This document shows positions 2,574-14,149 of a stretch of DNA of 64,000 nt, piece after piece. The number at the start of each line of letters is the position of its first letter. Position 1 is the first letter of the stretch. The notes below the pieces were generated by a model. That model was not told the origin of the DNA. It saw only the letters and a list, made by a program, of their open reading frames with translations, and did not search any database. A program made the translations under genes and the position numbers. Source of the DNA: Octopus sinensis (lineage: Eukaryota); assembly GCF_006345805.1 (NCBI RefSeq), contig NC_042998.1, positions 139,128,001 to 139,192,000 of the forward strand. Direction: 5' to 3'.

Positions 2574-2624
2574 CTGTCTGATAAAGAAGAAGACTTGAAG
2601 GAGATGGCACAATGGTTAGCCAGT
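2574..2624 (+). CDS. TOM1: TOM1/TOM1L2-like gene, internal coding exon (LSDKEEDLKEMAQWLAS)
   Basis: Polypyrimidine tract + TAG acceptor, GTAAGT donor, 51 nt, phase 0-0. Resembles the acidic 'D..E.WL' segment near the TOM1-family C-terminus and joins in frame to the next two exons. Confidence 0.8.
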
Positions 2625-3522
2625 GTAAGTCCCTCTTCATGATTTTGTGTGTGTTTAATATCTGGATAACCTAGCTACAGTCTGATGCCTGTAATCAGTA
2701 AAATGTGTTGTTTTATAGGTACCTTCATGCATACCAATTGAAATGTCTATGCACACATCACTTTGACATTTACTATTAAGTCACACTTTCACATCTGTTG
2801 TCTATTATCAATTTCACATACTTAATCTATGTGTTGTTAAATGCTTTTAGCTGCAGTATTTCATCTATGGGAAATCCTTTTGAAGACTTACAGCATTAAA
2901 AAAGAAAAAAAAACTGTATACTTCAAAGCTAGGCAAATCAAAACCATCCTAGAAGTAAATGAGAAAGGCATTTATCAATATTTTGCAGTATTTTCTGCTC
3001 ATCAATGCCATATACTTGCCTCATTTATAGTGGAAAAAAAGTTTTAAAGTATTAAATATAATAACCAAATGTTTTGCAACCAAGTTGAACAACTTTTACT
3101 CTGGTTTCCTCAAAACATATTAACCCTTTTGTTACCAAATTTCTATTGGCATATTCTCTCTTCGTTTCAATAATTTTGAATATATTGAAATAAAATGGTC
3201 GTTTTTAATATAAATAATATCTGTTTTAATAATGGCAGGTAACTGCTACTAATAGATTGGATCTACTACATAAGTGGTTTAAACAAATCTGGTTTTTTGT
3301 TAACAACTGACATCTTGACCTATCTTTATTAAAGGAACACATTTAATTCTATGTTGCAGTTAAAAATATCATTACTTTTGTTTTTTAAAAAATGCCAGAA
3401 TTTTATGTATTTTTATAATATATACACACATAGATATATAATTCATATATTCTTTAATAGTATGTTGCAGTTGAAAATATTTTTGTTTTTTTTTTAAATG
3501 TCAAAATTTTATATATTAATAG

Positions 3523-3556
3523 GATGGACAAGCTACAGAATCCATAAGCAGTTCAG
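3523..3556 (+). CDS. TOM1: TOM1-like gene, 34-nt coding micro-exon (DGQATESISSS+g)
   Basis: TAG acceptor, GTTAGT donor, phase 0-1. The leftover G + AG of the next exon makes Glu, giving ...ESISSSEFDKFLQER, which matches TOM1-family 'EGVTSEEFDKFLEER'. Confidence 0.8.
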
Positions 3557-4396
3557 GTTAGTTAACTATTTTATAAACATAATCCATATTTCTACTGTTA
3601 ATATGAAACATTTTTTCAACTGTTTCCATTCACATTTCTACTTACTTCTTTGTTTTATATGTTACTTTTCAAATGATGGGATTGTTGTCTTAACAATTTT
3701 AGTACATAACAAACTTGGGATTAAGTAAAAATACTGACTTAATTGTTATTCAAGTCAGCAAACTGGTAACAGTGTTAGAGTGTGGGATGGAATGTCTTAC
3801 AGCATTTAATTTGATTTTGTGTTCTAAGTTCAAATCCTGTTGAGGTCAACAATAATTACCTTTCATCCATTGACTAGCAAAACTGTGAAATGATAAAGAA
3901 AGATATCTTGCAGCATCTGTTCTGGCTCTTTACATTCTGACAATAATATTTGCAATGATACTGACATCAAGCTGTATCGGCCCAAGTCAGTGGCCTTTCC
4001 CTTGAATAAACACCAATGATGTGATACGAGGAGACTTGCATGTATGAACTGCACAGGTCTGCATATACATGAAAATTGTGGAAAATTAACAGCAGAAATT
4101 ATTTGAATAACCACAAAAATCCGGTTCTATTAGATTTTTCTCTTTTTATTTTGCTCTACAATCTTTCATTTGCTTTCTTTTATTTGTTTGTGCTGCTTGC
4201 CACACTACATTGTTTGCAGCAAGAATCAAAACAGTGTTCGATTTATCTCGTCCCTCTTCTCGATTCTACATCTTGCTGACAAAACACTGACTCGAAAAAT
4301 GACCAGCTAAGCGAATTTAACTTACAACCTGTCATTCATATTCATTTTTTAAGCGTTGATTCGTAACTCTAAATCCCGTTTCTCTATTATTTATTT

Positions 4397-4658
4397 CGCC
4401 ATCTTGTATGCATGGCTTCCTGTCTGTCATGCATTTTAAATTCCTCCTTTAATTTCAGTGTCATCCCGTTATTATTCCATTCCCAGAATTCACTACAATA
4501 CTCTCTCTCTCTCCTATTTATATTATGTTTTACTCGAACCCCGAAGTTTCTAGATGTTCAGTAATTTCTGTCGCAGAAAATTCCCTACGTATTAACTTAA
4601 AACCTGTTGTTCCTTCGAGGTGACCCCGCCCTCCCACCCATCCACCAGAACCGGAAGT
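4397..4658 (+). promoter_or_regulatory. Candidate internal promoter motifs in the RTE 5' leader
   Basis: CGCCATCTTG (YY1 consensus, 4397-4406), CCCCGCCC (GC box, 4624-4631) and ACCGGAAGT (ETS consensus, 4650-4658) in a CpG-retaining segment. Motif match only. Confidence 0.4.
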
Positions 4659-4770
4659 TTCTGTTTTCTATCTTTCTTGACCCCCCCCCCGCACCCCTAT
4701 GTAGGGTTTATTGTGATCATATAGCGCAAAAACTGTGAAATTTATGCAGGTTGTAGTCTAGAGTCTCAGT

Positions 4771-7700
4771 ATGATATCTGGCAAATGCAAGCTTTCTTTT
4801 CAGGTACATAACACTGCTGTCCCTCATCCCAGGGTCTCAGAGGCCCACACCTCCCACACCCTCATGGTGGGCACACTGAAAGGTAGGTCTGGCGAGATAG
4901 TCGAGATGCTTGAACGGAGACGTGTTGATGTATGTTGTATGCAAGAAATAAGGTGGAGAGGAGGATCTGCTAGGGTCCTCACAGGCAAGGAACACAGGTA
5001 CAAGATTTTCTGGGCAGGGAACACTGACGGGGTTGGTGGCGTGGGTATACTTATCGCTGAGAAATGGATAGATAGAGTAATTGAGGTAATCAGAGTAAGT
5101 GACAGAATACTTAAGATTAGAATAGTGCTTCATAATAGATTAGCAACCATTATATCGGCCTATGCCCCTCAGCCAGGGCTACCCGATGGACAGAAAGACA
5201 GTTTCTATGACACCCTACTGCAGACCACCTCATTGACGAACGACAGGGACCTTCTCTTTGTGGCTGGTGATTTCAATGGGCATGTTGGACGACATGCTGG
5301 GGGCTTCCATGGCGTACATGGAGGCTACGGTTATGGTTCCCGCAACGAGGAGGGAACCAGGCTGCTGGAGTTCTGCGATGCGAATAGTCTTATGGTCTGC
5401 AACACTAACTTCAGGAAACCAACAAGCCACCTGGTCACCTACCGATCGGGCCGGCATACTAGCCAAATCGACTACATCCTTGCCAGAAAAAGGGAAAGAT
5501 GGCTGCTTATAAATGTCAAAACCTTCCCAGGCGAAGAATGCACCCCACAACATAGACTGGTAGTTAGTGACTTTAGGATCAGGACTAAGAGGGCGACTAG
5601 AAGACGACCAACATGGAGAAGAAGGGTCTGGAAGCTTAAAGACCCTGCGAATGGACAGAGATTTAGAGATATGTTACTTGAAGCCTTTGACGAAGTGGAA
5701 GGGGGTATAGCTACACATGGGGTAGAAGACAACTGGACGTTTCTGAGGGACAACCTGCTGAAAGCCGCTGACCAGATCTGTGGCTGGTGCAAAGTCCCCT
5801 TAAGACCCAAAATAACGTGGTGGTGGAACAATATTGTTGACAGGGCTATTAGACAAAAGAAACAGGCTTGGAAGGCCTGGAAGAACGGTGGTAGCAGGGA
5901 AGGGTATCAGACTGCCAGAAGGGAAGCTAGGAGACAGGTCTATCTAGCCAGAGGGGAAGCAGATAAGAGAAAATTTGCCAATGTCCTGCGCCGTGAGGAT
6001 GAAAGACTTGAGGTATTTCGTGTTGCAAGACAGTGTGTGAGAGAGAATCGTGATGTGGTAGGAGAGAAATGTGTTCGCATGGAGGATGGTTCACTTGCGC
6101 TAAATGAGGATGCAAAGAGAGAAGCTTGGAGACGCCACTATGAAAGGTTGCTGAATGAGGAAAATGAATGGGATAAAGAGAGTCTGCCGAATGTTGACCC
6201 TACAGAGGGACCAGCTATCCGAGTTGATAGTTCCGTGGTAGCTAAGGCAATTAGAAGCATGAAGACAGGGAAAGCCCCAGGCCCATCAGAAATTACTGCA
6301 GAGATGCTCAAAATATCTGGCAGTGTCGGCTATAACCTAGTCAACCAGGTGATACACGAAGGAGTCATACCCAATGACTGGTGCAGCAGCATACTAGTCA
6401 ACTGCTACAAAGGTAAAGGTGATGCCCTAGATACAAATAATTACAGAGGTATCAAGCTGTTGGATCAAGTAATGAAGGTTACGGAGAGGGTCATAGCCCA
6501 ACTAATTAGAGAGAGAGTTAGTTTAGATGAGATGCAGTTTGGGTTCGTGCCAGGGAAAAGTACCACTGATGCTATATTCCTGGTAAGGCAGCTGCAGGAG
6601 AAATACCTAGCCAAAGATAAGCCCCTGTACCTGGCTTTCGTTGACATGGAGAAAGCTTTTGATAGGGTCCACCGATCCCTTATCTGGTGGTCAATGAGGA
6701 AACTAGGGATAGATGAATGGCTGGTGAGGACTGTGCAAGCCATGTACAGAGATGCCGTAAGTAAGGTTAGGGTTGGCAACATGTACACAGAAGAATTCAA
6801 AGTAGAGGTTGGGGTCCACCAGGGTTCGGTACTCAGCCCCCTCCTATTTATCATAGTACTCCAGGCAATTACGGAGGAATTCAAGACAGGCTGTCCCTGG
6901 GAGCTCCTCTACGCTGACGACCTTGCTCTTATTGCTGAGTCACTATCAGAACTGGAGGAGAAGTTCCAGGTGTGGAAGGAGGGTTTAGAATCAAGGGGCC
7001 TTAGAGTCAACCTAGCTAAAACCAAAGTACTAATAAGTAGGAAGGTAGACAATCCACAAATATCTTCAGGAAGATGGCCCTGCTCGATCTGTAGAAAAGG
7101 TGTAGGTAGAAACTCTATAAGATGTACCCAGTGTAAGCTATGGACACATAAGAGGTGCAGCAATGTCAAAGGTAGGCTAACTGGGAAGATAGTTTTTGTA
7201 TGTGGCAGATGCTCGGGAGCATTAACCTCCGAAAATCTGCAGAAAACAACTTCCGTCACTTTCCAGGGGGAAAAACTAGAAGTAGTTGATAGCTTCCGTT
7301 ATCTAGGTGACCAAGTCAGTAGTGGGGGTGGGTGCGCTGAAAGTGTAACTGCTAGAATAAGAATAGCCTGGGCAAAGTTTAGGGAGCTCTTACCTCTGCT
7401 GGTGACTAAAGGCCTCTCGCTCAGAGTAAAAGGCAGACTGTATGATGCGTGTGTACGAACAGCCATGCTACATGGCAGCGAAACATGGGCCGTGACTGCT
7501 GAGGACATGCGTAAGCTCGTGAGGAATGAAGCCAGTATGCTCCGATGGATGTGTAATGTTAGTGTACATACTCGACAGAGCGTTAGCACCTTGAGAGAAA
7601 TGTTGTACCTAAGAAGCATCAGTTGTGGTGTGCAAGAGAGACGATTGCGCTGGTATGGTCATGTGGCGAGAATGGATGAAGATAGGTGTGTGAGAAAGTG

Positions 7701-7818
7701 CCAATCCCTAGCAGTTGAGGGAACCCGTGGAAGAGGTAGACCCAGGAAAACCTGGGACGAGGTGGTGAAGCACGACCTTCGAACTTTAGGCCTCACTGAG
7801 GAAATGACCAGCGACTGA
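4771..7818 (+). CDS. RTE ORF: APE endonuclease + reverse transcriptase with inserted C4HC3 (PHD-like) finger, 1015 aa
   Basis: EN motifs MQE, SAYAPQ, GDFNGH, IDYIL. RT motifs KAPGP, NYRGIKLL, QFGF, FVDMEKAFD, GVHQGSVLSP, YADD (6910-6921), FRYLG. RTE-type C-terminal 'LRWYGHVARM...RGRGRPRKTW'. True start codon uncertain. Confidence 0.92.
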   Translation: MISGKCKLSFQVHNTAVPHPRVSEAHTSHTLMVGTLKGRSGEIVEMLERRRVDVCCMQEIRWRGGSARVLTGKEHRYKIFWAGNTDGVGGVGILIAEKWIDRVIEVIRVSDRILKIRIVLHNRLATIISAYAPQPGLPDGQKDSFYDTLLQTTSLTNDRDLLFVAGDFNGHVGRHAGGFHGVHGGYGYGSRNEEGTRLLEFCDANSLMVCNTNFRKPTSHLVTYRSGRHTSQIDYILARKRERWLLINVKTFPGEECTPQHRLVVSDFRIRTKRATRRRPTWRRRVWKLKDPANGQRFRDMLLEAFDEVEGGIATHGVEDNWTFLRDNLLKAADQICGWCKVPLRPKITWWWNNIVDRAIRQKKQAWKAWKNGGSREGYQTARREARRQVYLARGEADKRKFANVLRREDERLEVFRVARQCVRENRDVVGEKCVRMEDGSLALNEDAKREAWRRHYERLLNEENEWDKESLPNVDPTEGPAIRVDSSVVAKAIRSMKTGKAPGPSEITAEMLKISGSVGYNLVNQVIHEGVIPNDWCSSILVNCYKGKGDALDTNNYRGIKLLDQVMKVTERVIAQLIRERVSLDEMQFGFVPGKSTTDAIFLVRQLQEKYLAKDKPLYLAFVDMEKAFDRVHRSLIWWSMRKLGIDEWLVRTVQAMYRDAVSKVRVGNMYTEEFKVEVGVHQGSVLSPLLFIIVLQAITEEFKTGCPWELLYADDLALIAESLSELEEKFQVWKEGLESRGLRVNLAKTKVLISRKVDNPQISSGRWPCSICRKGVGRNSIRCTQCKLWTHKRCSNVKGRLTGKIVFVCGRCSGALTSENLQKTTSVTFQGEKLEVVDSFRYLGDQVSSGGGCAESVTARIRIAWAKFRELLPLLVTKGLSLRVKGRLYDACVRTAMLHGSETWAVTAEDMRKLVRNEASMLRWMCNVSVHTRQSVSTLREMLYLRSISCGVQERRLRWYGHVARMDEDRCVRKCQSLAVEGTRGRGRPRKTWDEVVKHDLRTLGLTEEMTSD

Positions 7819-7950
7819 GACCTTTGGAAATATTCTGTACGTGAGAAGACCAGGCAGGACAAGTGAGCCCAGCCCACTTATGAATGCCTTTCCTCCCTTG
7901 GACACAAAGACCTGTTGAGGCAAGCAAAGTCGATATAGAACCTCATCCGA

Positions 7951-8391
7951 CGACAGACACCCATGCCAACACCCCATGCTTGCGAAGACATGTTGGGGCA
8001 AGCGAAACCGAATTGAACCAGCCAGGATCCCTGGCCTGGTGGTACGTAAAAAGCACTATCCGACTCGTGGCCGTGGCACGTAAAATACTCCAATGCGACC
8101 GTACGACAGGCACCCATGCCAACCCCCTTTGCTTGTGAAGACATGTTGGGGCAAGCGAAATCGAAATCGAATTGAACCAGCCAGGATCCCTGGTCTGGTA
8201 GTACGTAAAAAGCACTATCCGACTCGTGGCCGTGGCACGTAAAATACTCCAATGCGACCGTACGACAGGCACCCATGCCAACCCCCTTTGCTTGTGAAGA
8301 CATGTTGGGGCAAGCGAAATCGAAATCGAATTGAACCAGCCAGGATCCCTGGTCTGGTGGTACGTAAAAAGCACTATCCGACTCGTGGCCG
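7951..8391 (+). repeat. Tandem 153/159-bp repeats in the RTE 3' UTR (about 2.8 copies)
   Basis: Near-identical units start at 7951, 8104 and 8263. A degenerate partial unit precedes them at ~7885-7940. Confidence 0.92.
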
Positions 8392-10379
8392 ATGCCAGCA
8401 CCGCCTCGACTGGCTTCCGTGCCGGTGGCACATAAAATACACCAGTCTGACCGTGGCCGTTGCCAGCCTCGCCTGGCACCTGTGCAGGTGGCACGTAAAA
8501 AGGACCCACTACACTCACGGAGTGGTTGGCGTTAGGAAGGGCATCCAGCTGTAGAAACATTGCCAGATTAGACTGGAGCCTGGTGCAGCCTTCTGGCTTC
8601 CCAGAACCCCGGTCGAACCGTCCAACCCATGCTAGCATGGAGAACGGACGTTAAACGATGATGATGATGATGATGATGTTAGTTCTTCTTTGGTATTCCA
8701 ACTTGACGTTTTATCTAGAGTTCACTGTGACCTTTTATATCACCCAGATGTAGAACTAGCATAATCACTTTGGTTCCTTGTTATCTTCTGAGAATACACT
8801 TAAATCATCACTTCTCCACTAACTCAGTTTTATTGTTTCTTTCAAAAAGATTGTTTAAAAATAAAACCTTTTGAGACAGGAGATATAACAAATTTTGCAT
8901 GAACTTAATATGTGCAGATACAGAGCCAACACTGACTAATAGAGGCCTTATATATAACTGTTATTCCCAAGAATGACTCAGTTTTTTTTCCTTTTTTTTT
9001 TTTTTAAATCGATCATTGCAATGGCTGAAATGGCACTTTTTCCCATTCAGTCTGAAATGAAGAGAATAGCATATGTAGTATTGAGACAAAACACAAGGAC
9101 TATAACACGTTTAGAGTTTATTACCATGTAATCAATTGTACCTCACACAACCAATCTACTTTTTCTACAATATAATTTCATCATGATATTTTTTCTTTTA
9201 TTTTATCATTTCTCTACAAGATTATCTATAATATTATTGTATTTTAGGTAGGTTTTTATACCAGTAATAAACACGTACACTGTGGTTAATAGTCTAACTA
9301 ATTGATTGTTTGATTGTTAGTCAATCAATCAGCTAGGTTTGTCAATATCCTTTCATCACCATTTGCAATCTCATCAATGGCATTTTCTCTCTACTCCTGT
9401 CTCTAATTAATTGGTTAAATATTAAATAAATTACTAGTAATATAAATGAAATATAATAGGTATGTGTTGCTTATTATTAGCATAATGACCTTCCTGTATT
9501 TCAATACACATCAATTTACATCAAGAATCTTGCAAACCAAAATCAAAAAAACTAATCTAGAATGATTATTAAGTTAAAAGCGTGATGTGCTGAACAACTT
9601 GTGCATAAATATCATGAGTGAAATTTCCCTCTAGACTTTAATCTGGATGGAGGAAACTTAATCTTGGGTGTTTTTAGTAGAGTCTACTTTGTTGAAAGTA
9701 TTCAAATCATATAGCTGGTTTTGGAACACTAGTCTTCCTGCATTCCACTAGTCTTGAAGGTCTTATATATACCACTTTTCCTCCTGACTAAAAGACTTTA
9801 AAAAAAAAATGGGTTGGCGAAAAAGGCAAAATTCTAGCTTCAATTGTTAGCACTCCTCCAAAGAAAAAGGGAGATAATGTCATGACATTAAGAATAAATC
9901 TAAGTTGATTTACATGCTTGATAGTGAAAGAGGAGTCTGATCTTTGTTTGCAAACAAGAGACAATTGTGCACAAGTTTCAGATATTAGACTTCATAGGCA
10001 TAACCGAATCTACTCTAGCCTGCTTTGATCAACTGATAAAGATTGTAACATAAAGAGAAAGAGCTACTAATAATTTTTTGCCACTATAATTTGCATAATT
10101 AAAGATCAAAACTGAAATAGACCAAAAGCATGAATTCAGATAAATAAAAGGGTGATGTATGTGAATATTTTACACAAAAATGGATGGCTGTCTCTCTCAG
10201 TTTATTCCAACTCAAATTTGTTTGGTGATGTAGAGACTTATTTTTCGACTTCTTCCCTGACATAGCCTTAATGTGTCACTAGCCCGTCCTTTTTGCCTAT
10301 TTTGGATTGTAAGAAATGCTTGAATTGAGTATATTGTATAAATATATATATATCAATATGTACTTTGTCTGTCTTGCAG

Positions 10380-10534: not shown

Positions 10535-11324
10535 GAAAAAGCAACTGGCCTCTATCTGTAACTACCGCTGTATCCTGATAGCTGAAGACATGAGGCACAG
10601 ACATTCTTTATAATGTATATATATATATGCATGTGCATATATATATATGCATGTGCATATATATATATATATATGTATGTATATATATATATGTATGTAT
10701 ATATATATATATATACATACACACACACACACATATATATAATATATTGCTGGATGATGGCTATAATAGTCGTACCAGGTTGAGGCTTCATATCTTTTTT
10801 TTTTTTTTATCTAACAGAATTCAGAACAGTCATCTAAAATGTACCAATTTTGGTGAGAGAGGGGAGGGGTAGGTGAAGAAAATACTTTCTGTGTGTGTGT
10901 GTTAAGACTTCTTCTTCCGCTAAGCACACCTACACATCCACAACCCAAAATGTGCTTGCATAGAATAACATCCTGACGTGATAATAGTCACATTCTAAGA
11001 CAATAAGAAAATTTCTATCTTTATGCACACACGTGTACATACATTCAAATGTAATGACAGTTACCTTTCTAAGACAAAAAAAATTTGTCTTCATGCACAC
11101 ACATGTACATAACAAGCACATAACACCTGCTCCTGTTTTTTTCTTTCTTTTTTTTTTTTACATACATATTTCTCTTTCTTTCCTTCTCTCACCACATATA
11201 CACACACACATACATACACACACACTTATGCAGGTAGATCAACACATAACAGCTAACATCACTTGTTCTTACAATGATTTTACTCAAAATATTATTATTA
11301 CTATTATCATTATTATTATTATTA

Positions 11325-11990
11325 AGACAGTGAGCTGGCAGAAATGTTAGCATGACAGACGAAATGCTCAGCAGCATTTTGTCCGTCTTTACATTCTAAG
11401 TTCAAATTCTATCAAGGTTAACTTTGCCTTTCTTCCTTCCAGGGTTAATAAAATAAAGTACCAGCCAAATACTGGGGTCAACAGAATTGACTAAACTCAG
11501 GTCCCCTCAAAATTGCAGGCCTTGTGCCTAAATCAGAAAAACTGTTATTATTATTATTATTATTAAGACAGCAAGCTGGCAGAATCATTAGCCTGCTGGA
11601 CAAAATGCTTAGCAGCATTTCTTCCAGCTTAAACTTCTGAGTTCAAATTCCACCAAGGTTGACTTTGCCTTTCATTCTTTCAGGGTCGATGAAATAAATA
11701 CCAGTTGAGCTAGGGGTTGATATAATCGACTAGCCCACTCCCACTCCCCAAAATTAAGACCTTGTGCTTATATTAGAAAGGATTATTATTATTATTATTA
11801 TTATTATTGCAGTGGAGTAACAGAAGCAGTAGAGTGCTAGACTAAATGCGTTGAGGTGTTTAGTTTTATCCCTTTACCCCCGTAGTTTAATTCAATGAAA
11901 TACATACCAGTAATTATATATTTTAAGTCAATCCATTTAACTGTAATACCCACTTTTTACAAATTTCGGGTCTTGTGCCATTGAAAGCTA
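11325..11990 (+). mobile_element. Head-to-tail array of ~220-bp SINEs with (TTA)n tails (2 clear + 1 degenerate copy)
   Basis: Repeated GAGCTGGCAGAA...GTTCAAATTC (pol III A/B-box-like), core GACTTTGCCTTTCATCCTTTC.GGGTCGATAAAATAAGTACCAG, and end GGCCTTGTGCCTA...(TTA)n. Confidence 0.8.
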
Positions 11991-12477
11991 TCGTATTTCT
12001 CCTCACTTCCTATTAACTTTATTACCTCCCCTTTCATCCCTCTTTTCTGCACCATTTGCATTGCTGAATGTCACTGAAGGATGAGAAGAAAGAGAGAAGC
12101 CAATATTAATGAAACCATCATGTAATCTCCGTTGAGCCTTGCCAGTGGAGAGTAATGCAATAAAAGAGAAAAATAGAATGCAACAAAAAAAAAAAATACT
12201 ATTTGAGTCAATAGTAATTTAAACCTACTTACAATCAAAGCAAAACAAGCCTTTTTTATTTTCATTATGCTGTACGCTGATCAGCTCTTATTACTATAAA
12301 CCCTCTTTCTTTCTTTTTTTATTTTTTCATATTTTTCTCTTACCCATTTCCTTCTCTTTGTCTGAAGAAAGTGCGTATCAGATGTTTTGTTACAAACATA
12401 TTACCCAATTACTCTTGACAGATACAAGATAAGGGAAGATGTGTCCTATTTCCTATATTACTGTTGTTATTAAGAAT

Positions 12478-13115
12478 GGGGCAAGTTTGTCCATCTTTAC
12501 ATTTTGAGTGCAAATTTCATCAAGGTTAATTTTGCCTTTCCTCCTTTTGAGTCGATGAAATAGGTAACGGTTGCACAGTGGGGTTGATCTAATCAATTAG
12601 CCTGCTCCCATAAAATTTCAAGCAGAAAGGCTTATTATTATTGCTGCCAGCTGGTAGAGTAGTTAGCACATTGGGCAAAATGCTTGGCAGCATTTCTTTT
12701 GGTTTTACATTCTGAGTTCAAATTCCACCACGGTCAGCTTTACCTTTCATCCTTTCAATGTTGATAAAATAAATACCAGATGAACACTAAGGTTGATATA
12801 ATCAACTAGCCCTTCTTCCCCCAAAATTTCAGGCTTTCACTTTTAATAGAAAGGATTATTAATATTAAGGCAGTGAGCAGGCAGAATAGTTAGCATGCCA
12901 GACAAAATGTTTAGTGACATTTCTTCTGGCTCTTTACATTCTGAGCTCAAATCCTGCTGAAGTCAACTTTGTCATTTATCCTTTCAAGGTTGATAAAGTA
13001 AGTACCAGTTGAGCACAGGAGAAGGGTAGGAGGCAGGTGGCAATGTAATTGAGCTATTCCTGCCTCTAAAGCTACTGGCCTTGTACCAAAATTTTAAACC
13101 ACCACTATTATTATT
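12478..13115 (+). mobile_element. Second head-to-tail array of the same (TTA)n-tailed SINE (3 copies)
   Basis: Same head, core and tail motifs as 11325-11990. Confidence 0.78.
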
Positions 13116-13347: not shown

Positions 13348-13705
13348 AATCCAGTTCTATTAGATTTTTCTCTTTTTATTTTACCCCACAATCTTTCATT
13401 TGCTTTCTTTTATTTGTTTGTGTTGCTTGCTGCACTACATTATTTACAGCAAGAATCAAAACTATTAACAGCCCTTCATTAGTTTTTCTTTGGTATTCCA
13501 TCTTGAAGTTTTGTCTGGAGTCTATCATTATCCTTTATATCACCCAGATATAGAACTAACATAATCTCTTTGGTTCCTTGTTATGCTCTGAGAATACACT
13601 TAAATCATCACTTCTCCACTAACTCAGTTTTATTGTTTCTTTCAAAAAGATTGTTTAAAAATAAAACCTTTTGTGACAGGAGATACAATAAATGTTGCAT
13701 GAACT
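13348..13705 (+). repeat. 358-bp segment duplicated in the last TOM1 intron (4118-4232 + 8679-8905), where it is split by the RTE
   Basis: Direct ungapped alignment by eye at offsets 9230 (left part) and 4800 (right part). Confidence 0.92.
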
Positions 13706-14149
13706 AAAAAAATAACATATACACGCATGTGTATATGTGTGTGTGTGTGTGTGTAAAGAACAAGAAGAAAAAGTGAGCTTTATCAGGAATGGTGATTTAA
13801 TTAATATGCCAAAGACAATATTTAGCTTCCATTTCGTATCGTAAAGTTTAATTTATATGTCATTAGCGCTACTTCTATAAATAGTATTTCACTTTTACAG
13901 AATTAATGATATAAAAATGTATTTTTTCTTTTAAATAAAATAAAATAAACCAAGAAAAATACTAAATAATGAAAAGGGAATTATAATTTTTTTAACTATT
14001 AATTTTGCCATTAGGCATGATGCTTTTTTCTGTTTTTGACATTTACAAAAAAGTTTATAAAGTGATGTATAGGTTTTATCCCTTCACATGTTTGAAAACT
14101 TAATTAATATTTAACTAATTTTTATTCTTGACAGTTAGTATCTACATCA

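What the first reader, a model, noticed from the sequence alone, without database searches (positions are those of the whole stretch)
2574..8865. RTE ORF is positioned for an in-frame TOM1-RTE fusion: phase-0 splice acceptor, skippable micro-exon and downstream poly(A) signal
Seen: GCTTTCTTTTCAG|G at 4791-4804 is a good 3' splice site, and 4804 is a codon boundary of the RTE ORF (V12). The TOM1 exon 2574-2624 ends in phase 0, so splicing 2624->4804 would fuse TOM1 to essentially the whole EN-RT protein. The intervening 34-nt exon has a weak acceptor (TTTTATATATTAATAG). Including it (3556->4804) gives GGT ACA TAA, a truncated TOM1 without its terminal EFDKFL...LFAL segment. An AATAAA lies at 8860-8865, just past the RTE tail. 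Inference: the element carries its own acceptor, so it may be expressed by splicing from its own leader or from host exons. It could act as a gene trap that gives an RT an endosomal-adaptor N-terminus.
Basis: partly seen in the sequence, partly recalled or inferred. Interest (0 to 1): 0.75.

Follow-up and report, generated by a model that had tools for sequence, protein, structure and literature searches.

The report
Decaying LINE inside TOM1 intron
A young, already damaged jumping gene (a LINE) sits in the last intron of the octopus TOM1 gene, the TOM1 transcripts seen splice normally around it, and the splice-site-like motif at its start is an old trait of the whole LINE family that likely does not make a TOM1 fusion protein.

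Summary
The coordinates and frame arithmetic are right, but a TOM1-RTE fusion is not supported. The 34-nt exon is joined to exon 2574-2624 in 7 of 7 laid runs, and to the normal last exon in 4 of 4 checked; skipping it would frameshift TOM1. No joint into 4804 appeared. Contigs drop rare forms, though, and it is unknown whether those animals carry the insertion. This copy (4228-8678) is 99.4% like its closest sisters yet is decaying: a 15-nt deletion removes the first endonuclease Asn, and it has a 12-nt deletion, a conserved RT Pro changed and an early stop. AATAAA 8860 lies in host DNA, not in the element. One part of the reading holds: the motif belongs to the element. TCT-TTT-CAG is kept in phase 0 in three octopus families only 70-77% alike in protein. 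But each family also keeps an in-frame ATG 11-15 codons upstream, conservation steps up at that ATG, and none of 176 copies is a spliced integrant. Verdict: an ordinary intronic insertion; whether the family motif ever acts as an acceptor remains open.

The parts
2574..2624 (+). TOM1 coding exon, 17 codons, phase 0 at both ends
   Evidence: Sequence; spliced from an upstream exon 13.5 kb away and to 3523
3523..3556 (+). TOM1 34-nt exon, needed for the frame of the last exon
   Evidence: Joint 2624->3523 GT..AG in 6 runs plus a matching loose end in a seventh; skipping frameshifts
4118..4232 (+). 5' part of the host target, a local duplicate of 13348-13462
   Evidence: 92% identity; only two copies found in the genome
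4228..8678 (+). RTE-type LINE copy, sense to TOM1; 5-nt microhomology (4228-4232) at the 5' joint; no target duplication, about 16 nt of target inferred lost
   Evidence: Family copies match from 4228 and end at the (GAT)n tail
4228..4770 (+). Element 5' UTR; sisters carry arrays of 139/162-nt monomers here, this copy keeps only the inner part
4771..4773 (+). Element's own ATG, likely start of the ORF
   Evidence: Kept in 29 of 29 young, 24 of 25 and 28 of 30 older copies; conservation steps up here
4792..4803 (+). Acceptor-like CTTTCTTTTCAG = codons L-S-F-Q of the ORF; family-wide motif, use as a splice site not seen
4771..7818 (+). Damaged EN-RT ORF (1015 aa) with a PHD-like finger: 15-nt deletion near 4866, 12-nt deletion near 6343, Pro>His at 6671, early stop at 7816
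   Evidence: Pfam; comparison with intact sisters; Pro kept in 119 of 120 relatives
7950..8391 (+). 159-nt tandem repeat (2.8 copies) in the element 3' UTR
8657..8678 (+). (GAT)n tail, the element's 3' end; the element holds no AATAAA
8679..8908 (+). 3' part of the host target, duplicate of 13479-13708; holds AATAAA 8860-8865
   Evidence: 90% identity
10380..10534 (+). Coding part of the TOM1 last exon (EFDKFL...LFAL-stop)
   Evidence: Loose end behind 3556 reads this exon in 4 of 4 runs; translation

Best explanation
This is a young, already damaged RTE-type LINE lying sense in the last intron of TOM1; the TOM1 transcripts seen include the 34-nt exon and splice round the element, and the acceptor-like TTTTCAG is a family trait that likely lies inside coding sequence read from the element's own ATG. 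Steps: (1) shown - the element is bounded by 4228 and a (GAT)n tail at 8678 and splits a host duplicate; inferred - it arrived by target-primed reverse transcription with a small target deletion. (2) Shown - intact sisters encode 1040 aa from the same ATG; inferred - that ATG is the start in vivo. (3) Shown - this copy has since gained private lesions; inferred - its endonuclease is dead and the frame is drifting neutrally. (4) Shown - the dominant mRNA runs 2624->3523 and 3556->10380; inferred - the same holds in carriers, with at most minor cryptic splicing into 4804. (5) Open - S-F-Q(V/M) is the one conserved island of the leader, most likely a protein motif or a non-splicing RNA signal.
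For: Normal splicing: 2624->3523 in 7 of 7 runs from 6 studies; 3556->last exon in 4 of 4, on single contigs of 1098 and 1131 nt in two runs. A contig crosses 4803/4804 unspliced with 72 and 37 letters either side (X5 record 21). Own ATG: kept in frame in all subfamilies, with no indel between ATG and motif in 25 of 25 and 30 of 30 older copies while the UTR upstream has indels of other lengths; a 6-nt in-frame insertion in one subfamily; families A and B have their own ATG 13 and 15 codons up; identity to the majority rises from 0.76-0.85 to 0.88-0.97 at the ATG, not at the AG (50 sequences chosen for having the motif). Intact 1040-aa ORFs in 6 of 38 fetched copies. Decay: 5 amino-acid-changing (one a stop) against 2 silent private changes on 2364:681 sites, where subfamilies differ by dN 0.048, dS 0.274. 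No spliced integrant among 62 young copies, in a genome-wide pattern search or among 176 distinct loci. None of 24 shorter proteins, nor the one near-length protein matching the N-terminal region, has a foreign start joined at V12 (23 of the 24 read in full, P0001 too, P0153 and P0122 among them).
Against: TCT TTT CAG is identical in three families 70-77% alike in protein; chance given the conserved residues is only about 0.10, and the codon before it changes residue (Leu, Pro, Ser) but stays all-pyrimidine. Codons 1-31 show 1 silent difference in 21.8 sites against 102 in 372 downstream (p 0.008, post hoc), which points to constraint on the nucleotides. 4792 is the only strict Y8-N-YAG in this intron. 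No laid contig bridges the 5' insertion joint, so carriers were not shown among the RNA animals, and tissues are unknown. In one search, 29 joints were hidden, 10 loose ends were hidden.
Confidence: 0.8

Rival explanations
1. The family keeps a real phase-0 splice acceptor just behind its ATG and uses it, in a tissue not sampled here (for example the germ line), to be spliced onto upstream host or leader exons; TOM1 would then give a minor chimeric or truncated mRNA in carriers.
For: Motif identical in three families with an all-pyrimidine codon before it; silent-site deficit over codons 1-31; S/P-F-Q also in three unnamed relatives' proteins (DNA not seen). Sense L1 copies act as gene traps when SAFB is lost, and some of these events appear in testis (PMC10901741, abstract and section 7 read).
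Against: ATG and frame equally conserved; no spliced integrant in 176 loci, where L1 acceptors that are used leave such copies (PMC5860796, abstract); family RNA crosses the site unspliced; one relative has S-F-H and one lacks the island; the element holds no AATAAA.
Confidence: 0.12
2. The conserved TTCTTTTC is an RNA or DNA signal of another kind, such as an internal initiator (TCT-like; consensus recalled) or a protein-binding pyrimidine tract, and it marks a preferred 5' end of element RNA or cDNA.
For: Five of 176 loci are cut off 6-12 nt upstream of the AG, three of them among 62 young copies at 4795-4797; nucleotide-level constraint round the motif.
Against: All five have AT-, (TA)n- or (TG)n-rich flanks with T microhomology, which explains the cluster without a start site; an RNA starting there would lack the ATG; no conserved fold.
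Confidence: 0.2
3. A functional TOM1-RT fusion protein is made by skipping the 34-nt exon, splicing to 4804 and ending at the AATAAA at 8860.
For: Frames fit; the RT YADD motif is intact; the AATAAA lies in a duplicate of a segment whose other copy may hold TOM1's own poly(A) site.
Against: Needs two events, neither seen; the insertion is very young (99.45% to its nearest sister) yet carries a neutral-looking set of lesions; the intronic duplicate has lost the second AATAAA and the GT-rich tract.
Confidence: 0.02

Closest known systems
Octopus RTE LINEs (RTE-2_OV and the O. bimaculoides RTE, PMC9115989, passages read; 13 recently active RTE families in O. vulgaris, PMC13282606, passages read)
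   Same: Single ORF of about 1040-1110 aa with EN, RT and a zinc finger; own start codon; microsatellite 3' end; recent activity.
   Different: Identity with RTE-2_OV could not be tested (its ORF is 1109 aa and PMC13282606 says the sequences were not reported); PMC9115989's main text has no occurrence of 'splic'; this copy is damaged.
Sense intronic L1 copies kept intronic by SAFB (PMC10901741, abstract and section 7 read) and exonized mouse L1 (PMC2176070, abstract)
   Same: A sense LINE in an intron carrying latent RNA-processing signals, normally spliced out.
   Different: There the element's own poly(A) site ends the trapped mRNA; this element has no AATAAA, and no exonization was seen.
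L1 SpIREs, spliced integrated retrotransposed elements (PMC5860796, abstract)
   Same: A splice-acceptor-like site near the start of the first ORF.
   Different: Used L1 sites leave spliced genomic copies; none among 176 loci here.
Ruminant p97Bcnt/CFDP2, a host protein that took in an RTE-1 endonuclease domain (seen only as a cited title in PMC4613681; the paper itself not held; details recalled)
   Different: That fusion is an expressed protein; here the copy is young, the endonuclease motif is deleted and no fusion mRNA was seen.

Membership tests
RTE-clade LINE | One ORF with AP-type endonuclease followed by RT | tested here: met
   Exo_endo_phos and RVT_1 over cut-off; 1040-aa single ORF in 6 of 38 copies
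RTE-clade LINE | 3' end in a short microsatellite rather than poly(A) | tested here: met
   (GAT)n tail in the window and in 19 of 19 sisters
RTE-clade LINE | Target site duplication | tested here: not met
   None at this copy; about 16 nt missing against the 92%-identical duplicate. A property of this insertion, not tested properly for the family
RTE-clade LINE | RT tree placement among named RTE references | not tested
   No tree with named references was built; the label rests on architecture, on database names of relatives and on recall
Retrotransposition-competent copy | Intact endonuclease motif 1, RT and C-terminus | tested here: not met
   GTLNV deleted, 4-aa deletion, Pro>His, last 16 aa lost; that the Asn is catalytic is recalled from L1 (search found no paper)
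Host-transposon fusion gene / gene trap | Acceptor in frame with a host donor | tested here: met
   2624->4804 in frame, one of eight in-frame pairs nearby
Host-transposon fusion gene / gene trap | Spliced chimeric mRNA exists | tested here: inconclusive
   Not seen in 7 runs; normal isoform seen in all; contigs drop rare forms and carriers not shown
Host-transposon fusion gene / gene trap | Purifying selection on the captured frame | tested here: not met
   5 amino-acid-changing against 2 silent private changes plus two deletions; small numbers
Host-transposon fusion gene / gene trap | Poly(A) signal carried by the element | tested here: not met
   No AATAAA in 4228-8678
Host-transposon fusion gene / gene trap | Insertion fixed and shared with sister species | not tested
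   Both read-laying runs went to RNA; no DNA run was laid
SpIRE-forming LINE | Genomic copies joined exactly at the acceptor | tested here: not met
   0 of 62, 0 in a genome-wide pattern, 0 of 176
HDV-ribozyme-headed RTE | Double-pseudoknot ribozyme at the 5' end | tested here: inconclusive
   No ribozyme family in Rfam scans; own descriptor found none but had no positive control

The most novel reading that the evidence does not exclude
The octopus PHD-bearing RTE lineage has kept a working phase-0 splice acceptor 11-15 codons behind its own ATG through at least three families, so intronic copies can be spliced onto host exons in the germ line or brain: a built-in gene-trap route for expressing a LINE protein, with TOM1 as one current host.
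Probability: 0.12. Interest if true: 0.7.

Novelty: new member of a known kind. Interest (0 to 1): 0.2.

Why it matters
As it stands, little: one more young LINE in an intron of a repeat-rich genome, spliced out in the transcripts seen. If the family motif were a used acceptor, it would give a LINE a second way to be expressed, borrowed from host genes. That would bear on the reports of RTE expression in octopus neurons and make each sense intronic copy a potential source of truncated or chimeric host proteins. The test is cheap: count reads entering at one 12-nt motif across all copies.

Tried and rejected
No RNA holder on record was listed; the runs laid were guessed RNA or of unknown kind, and their GT..AG joints show spliced RNA. 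Bins without cover (3985-4224 and 4625-4704) were not read as evidence. The copy's private allele at 5516 had no depth in 4 of 4 runs: it cannot tell silence from absence of the insertion, and contigs drop rare variants. The depth rise at 4785-4864 was rejected as a sign of splicing, because the listed pieces start at 4788-4790, on the intron side, and older subfamilies match best there. A conserved RNA structure round the motif: none (z 0.22; alignment fold matched by 14 of 100 shuffles). HDV-like ribozyme: not found, no positive control. Three distant metagenome relatives that could be read (of 5; 42-45% identity) have no acceptor-like motif upstream of the endonuclease, and none of 95 distant proteins has F-Q 15-35 residues before the Asn, so the motif is limited to the nearer clade. 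The GAT family search found nothing and shows nothing; no PDB match for the endonuclease part. The locus of gene model P0286, which has a foreign N-terminus joined downstream of V12, was not found at the cut-off used. CAG|GTACAT also reads as a weak donor; no joint left from it. Literature: 'RTE clade + splice acceptor + retrotransposon + intron' gave one paper, on SVA; 'TOM1 + octopus + retrotransposon' gave one unrelated paper. No supplements were read; those of PMC9115989 and PMC13282606 could name this family.
Full report
Observation. The letters and frames are as described. ATG 4771 opens a 1015-codon frame with endonuclease, RT and PHD-like domains, and 4804 is its twelfth codon. The host is TOM1-like: a VHS exon lies about 49 kb upstream on the same strand and matches TOM1 best among solved structures. 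The closest named relatives of the element come from Octopus species.

Chance. A strict Y8-N-YAG occurs 19 times on the + strand of the window, and 4792 is the only one in this intron, so it is a fair acceptor-like site but not rare. Eight AG/donor pairs between 4761 and 4900 give an in-frame product, including one from 3556 without any skipping. AATAAA occurs once per 633 nt and six times in this intron.

Anatomy. Family copies match from 4228 and end at a (GAT)n tail at 8678. The element split a host segment that has one other copy in the genome, at 13348-13708. Against that copy about 16 nt are missing and there is no target duplication. AATAAA 8860 belongs to this host segment; the element has none. 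The downstream copy has two AATAAA and a GT-rich tract, while the intronic one has lost the second and the tract.

State of this copy. It is 99.45% identical to its nearest sister, and 6 of 38 fetched copies encode an intact 1040-aa protein from the same ATG. The window copy lacks GTLNV, with the Asn of the first endonuclease motif, lacks four residues near 6343, and stops 16 codons early. A Pro kept in 119 of 120 relatives is His. Its private changes are five amino-acid-changing and two silent on 2364:681 sites, against dN 0.048 and dS 0.274 between subfamilies. That looks like neutral decay, on small numbers. That the Asn is catalytic is recalled from L1 work and was not found in the held papers.

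RNA. Seven runs from six studies were laid as contigs. All seven join 2624 to 3523 (six as a GT..AG joint, one as a matching loose end). The four laid on the narrow stretch continue from 3556 into the last exon, two of them on single contigs over 1 kb. The joint table is complete, three rows, and has no joint into 4804 from 2624, from 3556 or from the element leader. One contig crosses 4803/4804 unspliced with 72 and 37 letters on either side. Limits: contigs drop rare forms, 29 joints were hidden and 10 loose ends, tissues are unknown, and no contig bridges the insertion joint, so carriers were not shown.

The motif in the family. Of 72 exact matches to the sequence just behind the AG, 62 were read directly: 60 keep TTTTCAG, one has CAA and one a one-base loss; the other ten run on unbroken. 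Older copies keep it in 20 of 24 and 28 of 30 (the sets overlap), and keep the ATG as often (21 of 24, 28 of 30). No copy is joined to foreign sequence at the AG: none in a genome-wide pattern search, none of 176 distinct loci. Used L1 acceptors do leave such copies (PMC5860796, abstract).

Deeper relatives. Two more families in this genome, 70-77% alike in protein over about 460 codons, have TCT TTT CAG in the same phase, though their leaders otherwise differ (24 of 25 copies in family B, 9 of 25 exact in the older, decayed family A, whose majority has CAG). The chance of three identical codons given conserved residues is about 0.10. The preceding codon changes residue but stays all-pyrimidine. 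Codons 1-31 are also short of silent changes, 1 in 21.8 sites against 102 in 372 (post hoc). Against a splice role, each family keeps an in-frame ATG 11-15 codons upstream, indels between ATG and motif in families B and W are multiples of three, and conservation steps up at the ATG. Three unnamed relatives have S/P-F-Q-M, one has S-F-H and one lacks the island. Annotated octopus models of the family start at the element's ATG, one model excepted, which joins downstream of V12.

An unexplained point. Five of 176 loci are cut off 6-12 nt upstream of the AG, three of them in the unbiased young set. They keep the intron side, so they are not spliced copies. All have AT-rich or dinucleotide flanks with T microhomology, the simplest cause; an internal start site is the alternative.

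Mechanism. Most likely the element inserted recently, is translated from its own ATG where intact, is dead at this locus, and is removed with the intron (confidence 0.8). Rivals, which are not exclusive: a non-splicing signal at the motif (0.2), a real family acceptor used in an unsampled tissue (0.12), a functional TOM1-RT protein (0.02).

Comparison. The architecture matches the octopus RTE LINEs (PMC9115989 and PMC13282606, passages read); placement in an RT tree was not tested. The situation resembles sense intronic L1 copies that are normally spliced out (PMC10901741, abstract and section 7), except that this element has no poly(A) signal of its own. Some RTEs depend on host transcription and HDV-like ribozymes (PMC6765202, passages); no ribozyme was found here, without a positive control. 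Searches for a prior report of this motif or this locus found nothing relevant.

Verdict. An ordinary young intronic LINE, interest 0.2. The one lead worth a cheap test is the family-wide motif.

Noticed in passing
L005, L026, L057, L062, L073 (5' UTRs of sister copies); window 4228-4620: The young subfamily has 5' arrays of 139- and 162-nt monomers, over ten copies in one locus, and the UTR upstream of about 4685 is replaced between subfamilies. This recalls rodent L1 monomer promoters and promoter swapping (recalled).
   Followed up: partly
window 4864-4870; L089-L113: The same 15-nt deletion between two near-direct repeats removes the endonuclease Asn in 12 of 25 older copies (the query carried it, so the count is biased) and in many: a recurrent self-inactivating deletion, or a non-autonomous lineage.
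   Followed up: partly
window 13348-13708: Segment 2.8-3.2 kb past the TOM1 stop with AATAAA at 13660 and 13687 and a GT-rich tract; contigs at mRNA-like depth in three runs carry its alleles. It may hold TOM1's real poly(A) site, duplicated into the last intron. Those contigs also match 4081-4117, which this assembly's copy does not.
   Followed up: partly
L059, L071, L083, L241, L303: Five copies are 5'-truncated 6-12 nt upstream of the acceptor-like AG, in three subfamilies or families.
   Followed up: partly
window 8534-8546; L270-L273: A 13-nt motif in this element's 3' UTR also lies in the 5' UTR of four distant metagenome relatives, and six times in the window: the tail may derive from the head of another retroelement.
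   Followed up: partly
window 7081-7212: PHD-like finger inside the RT region (below Pfam cut-off), annotated in many of the 120 relatives.
   Followed up: no
window 3340-3522: The intron just upstream of the 34-nt exon holds an imperfect tandem duplication of its own acceptor region, with a second TAG near 3460 (seen).
   Followed up: no
window 11300-13100: A run of about 240-nt repeats separated by (ATT)n in the presumed TOM1 3' UTR, probably SINE copies.
   Followed up: no
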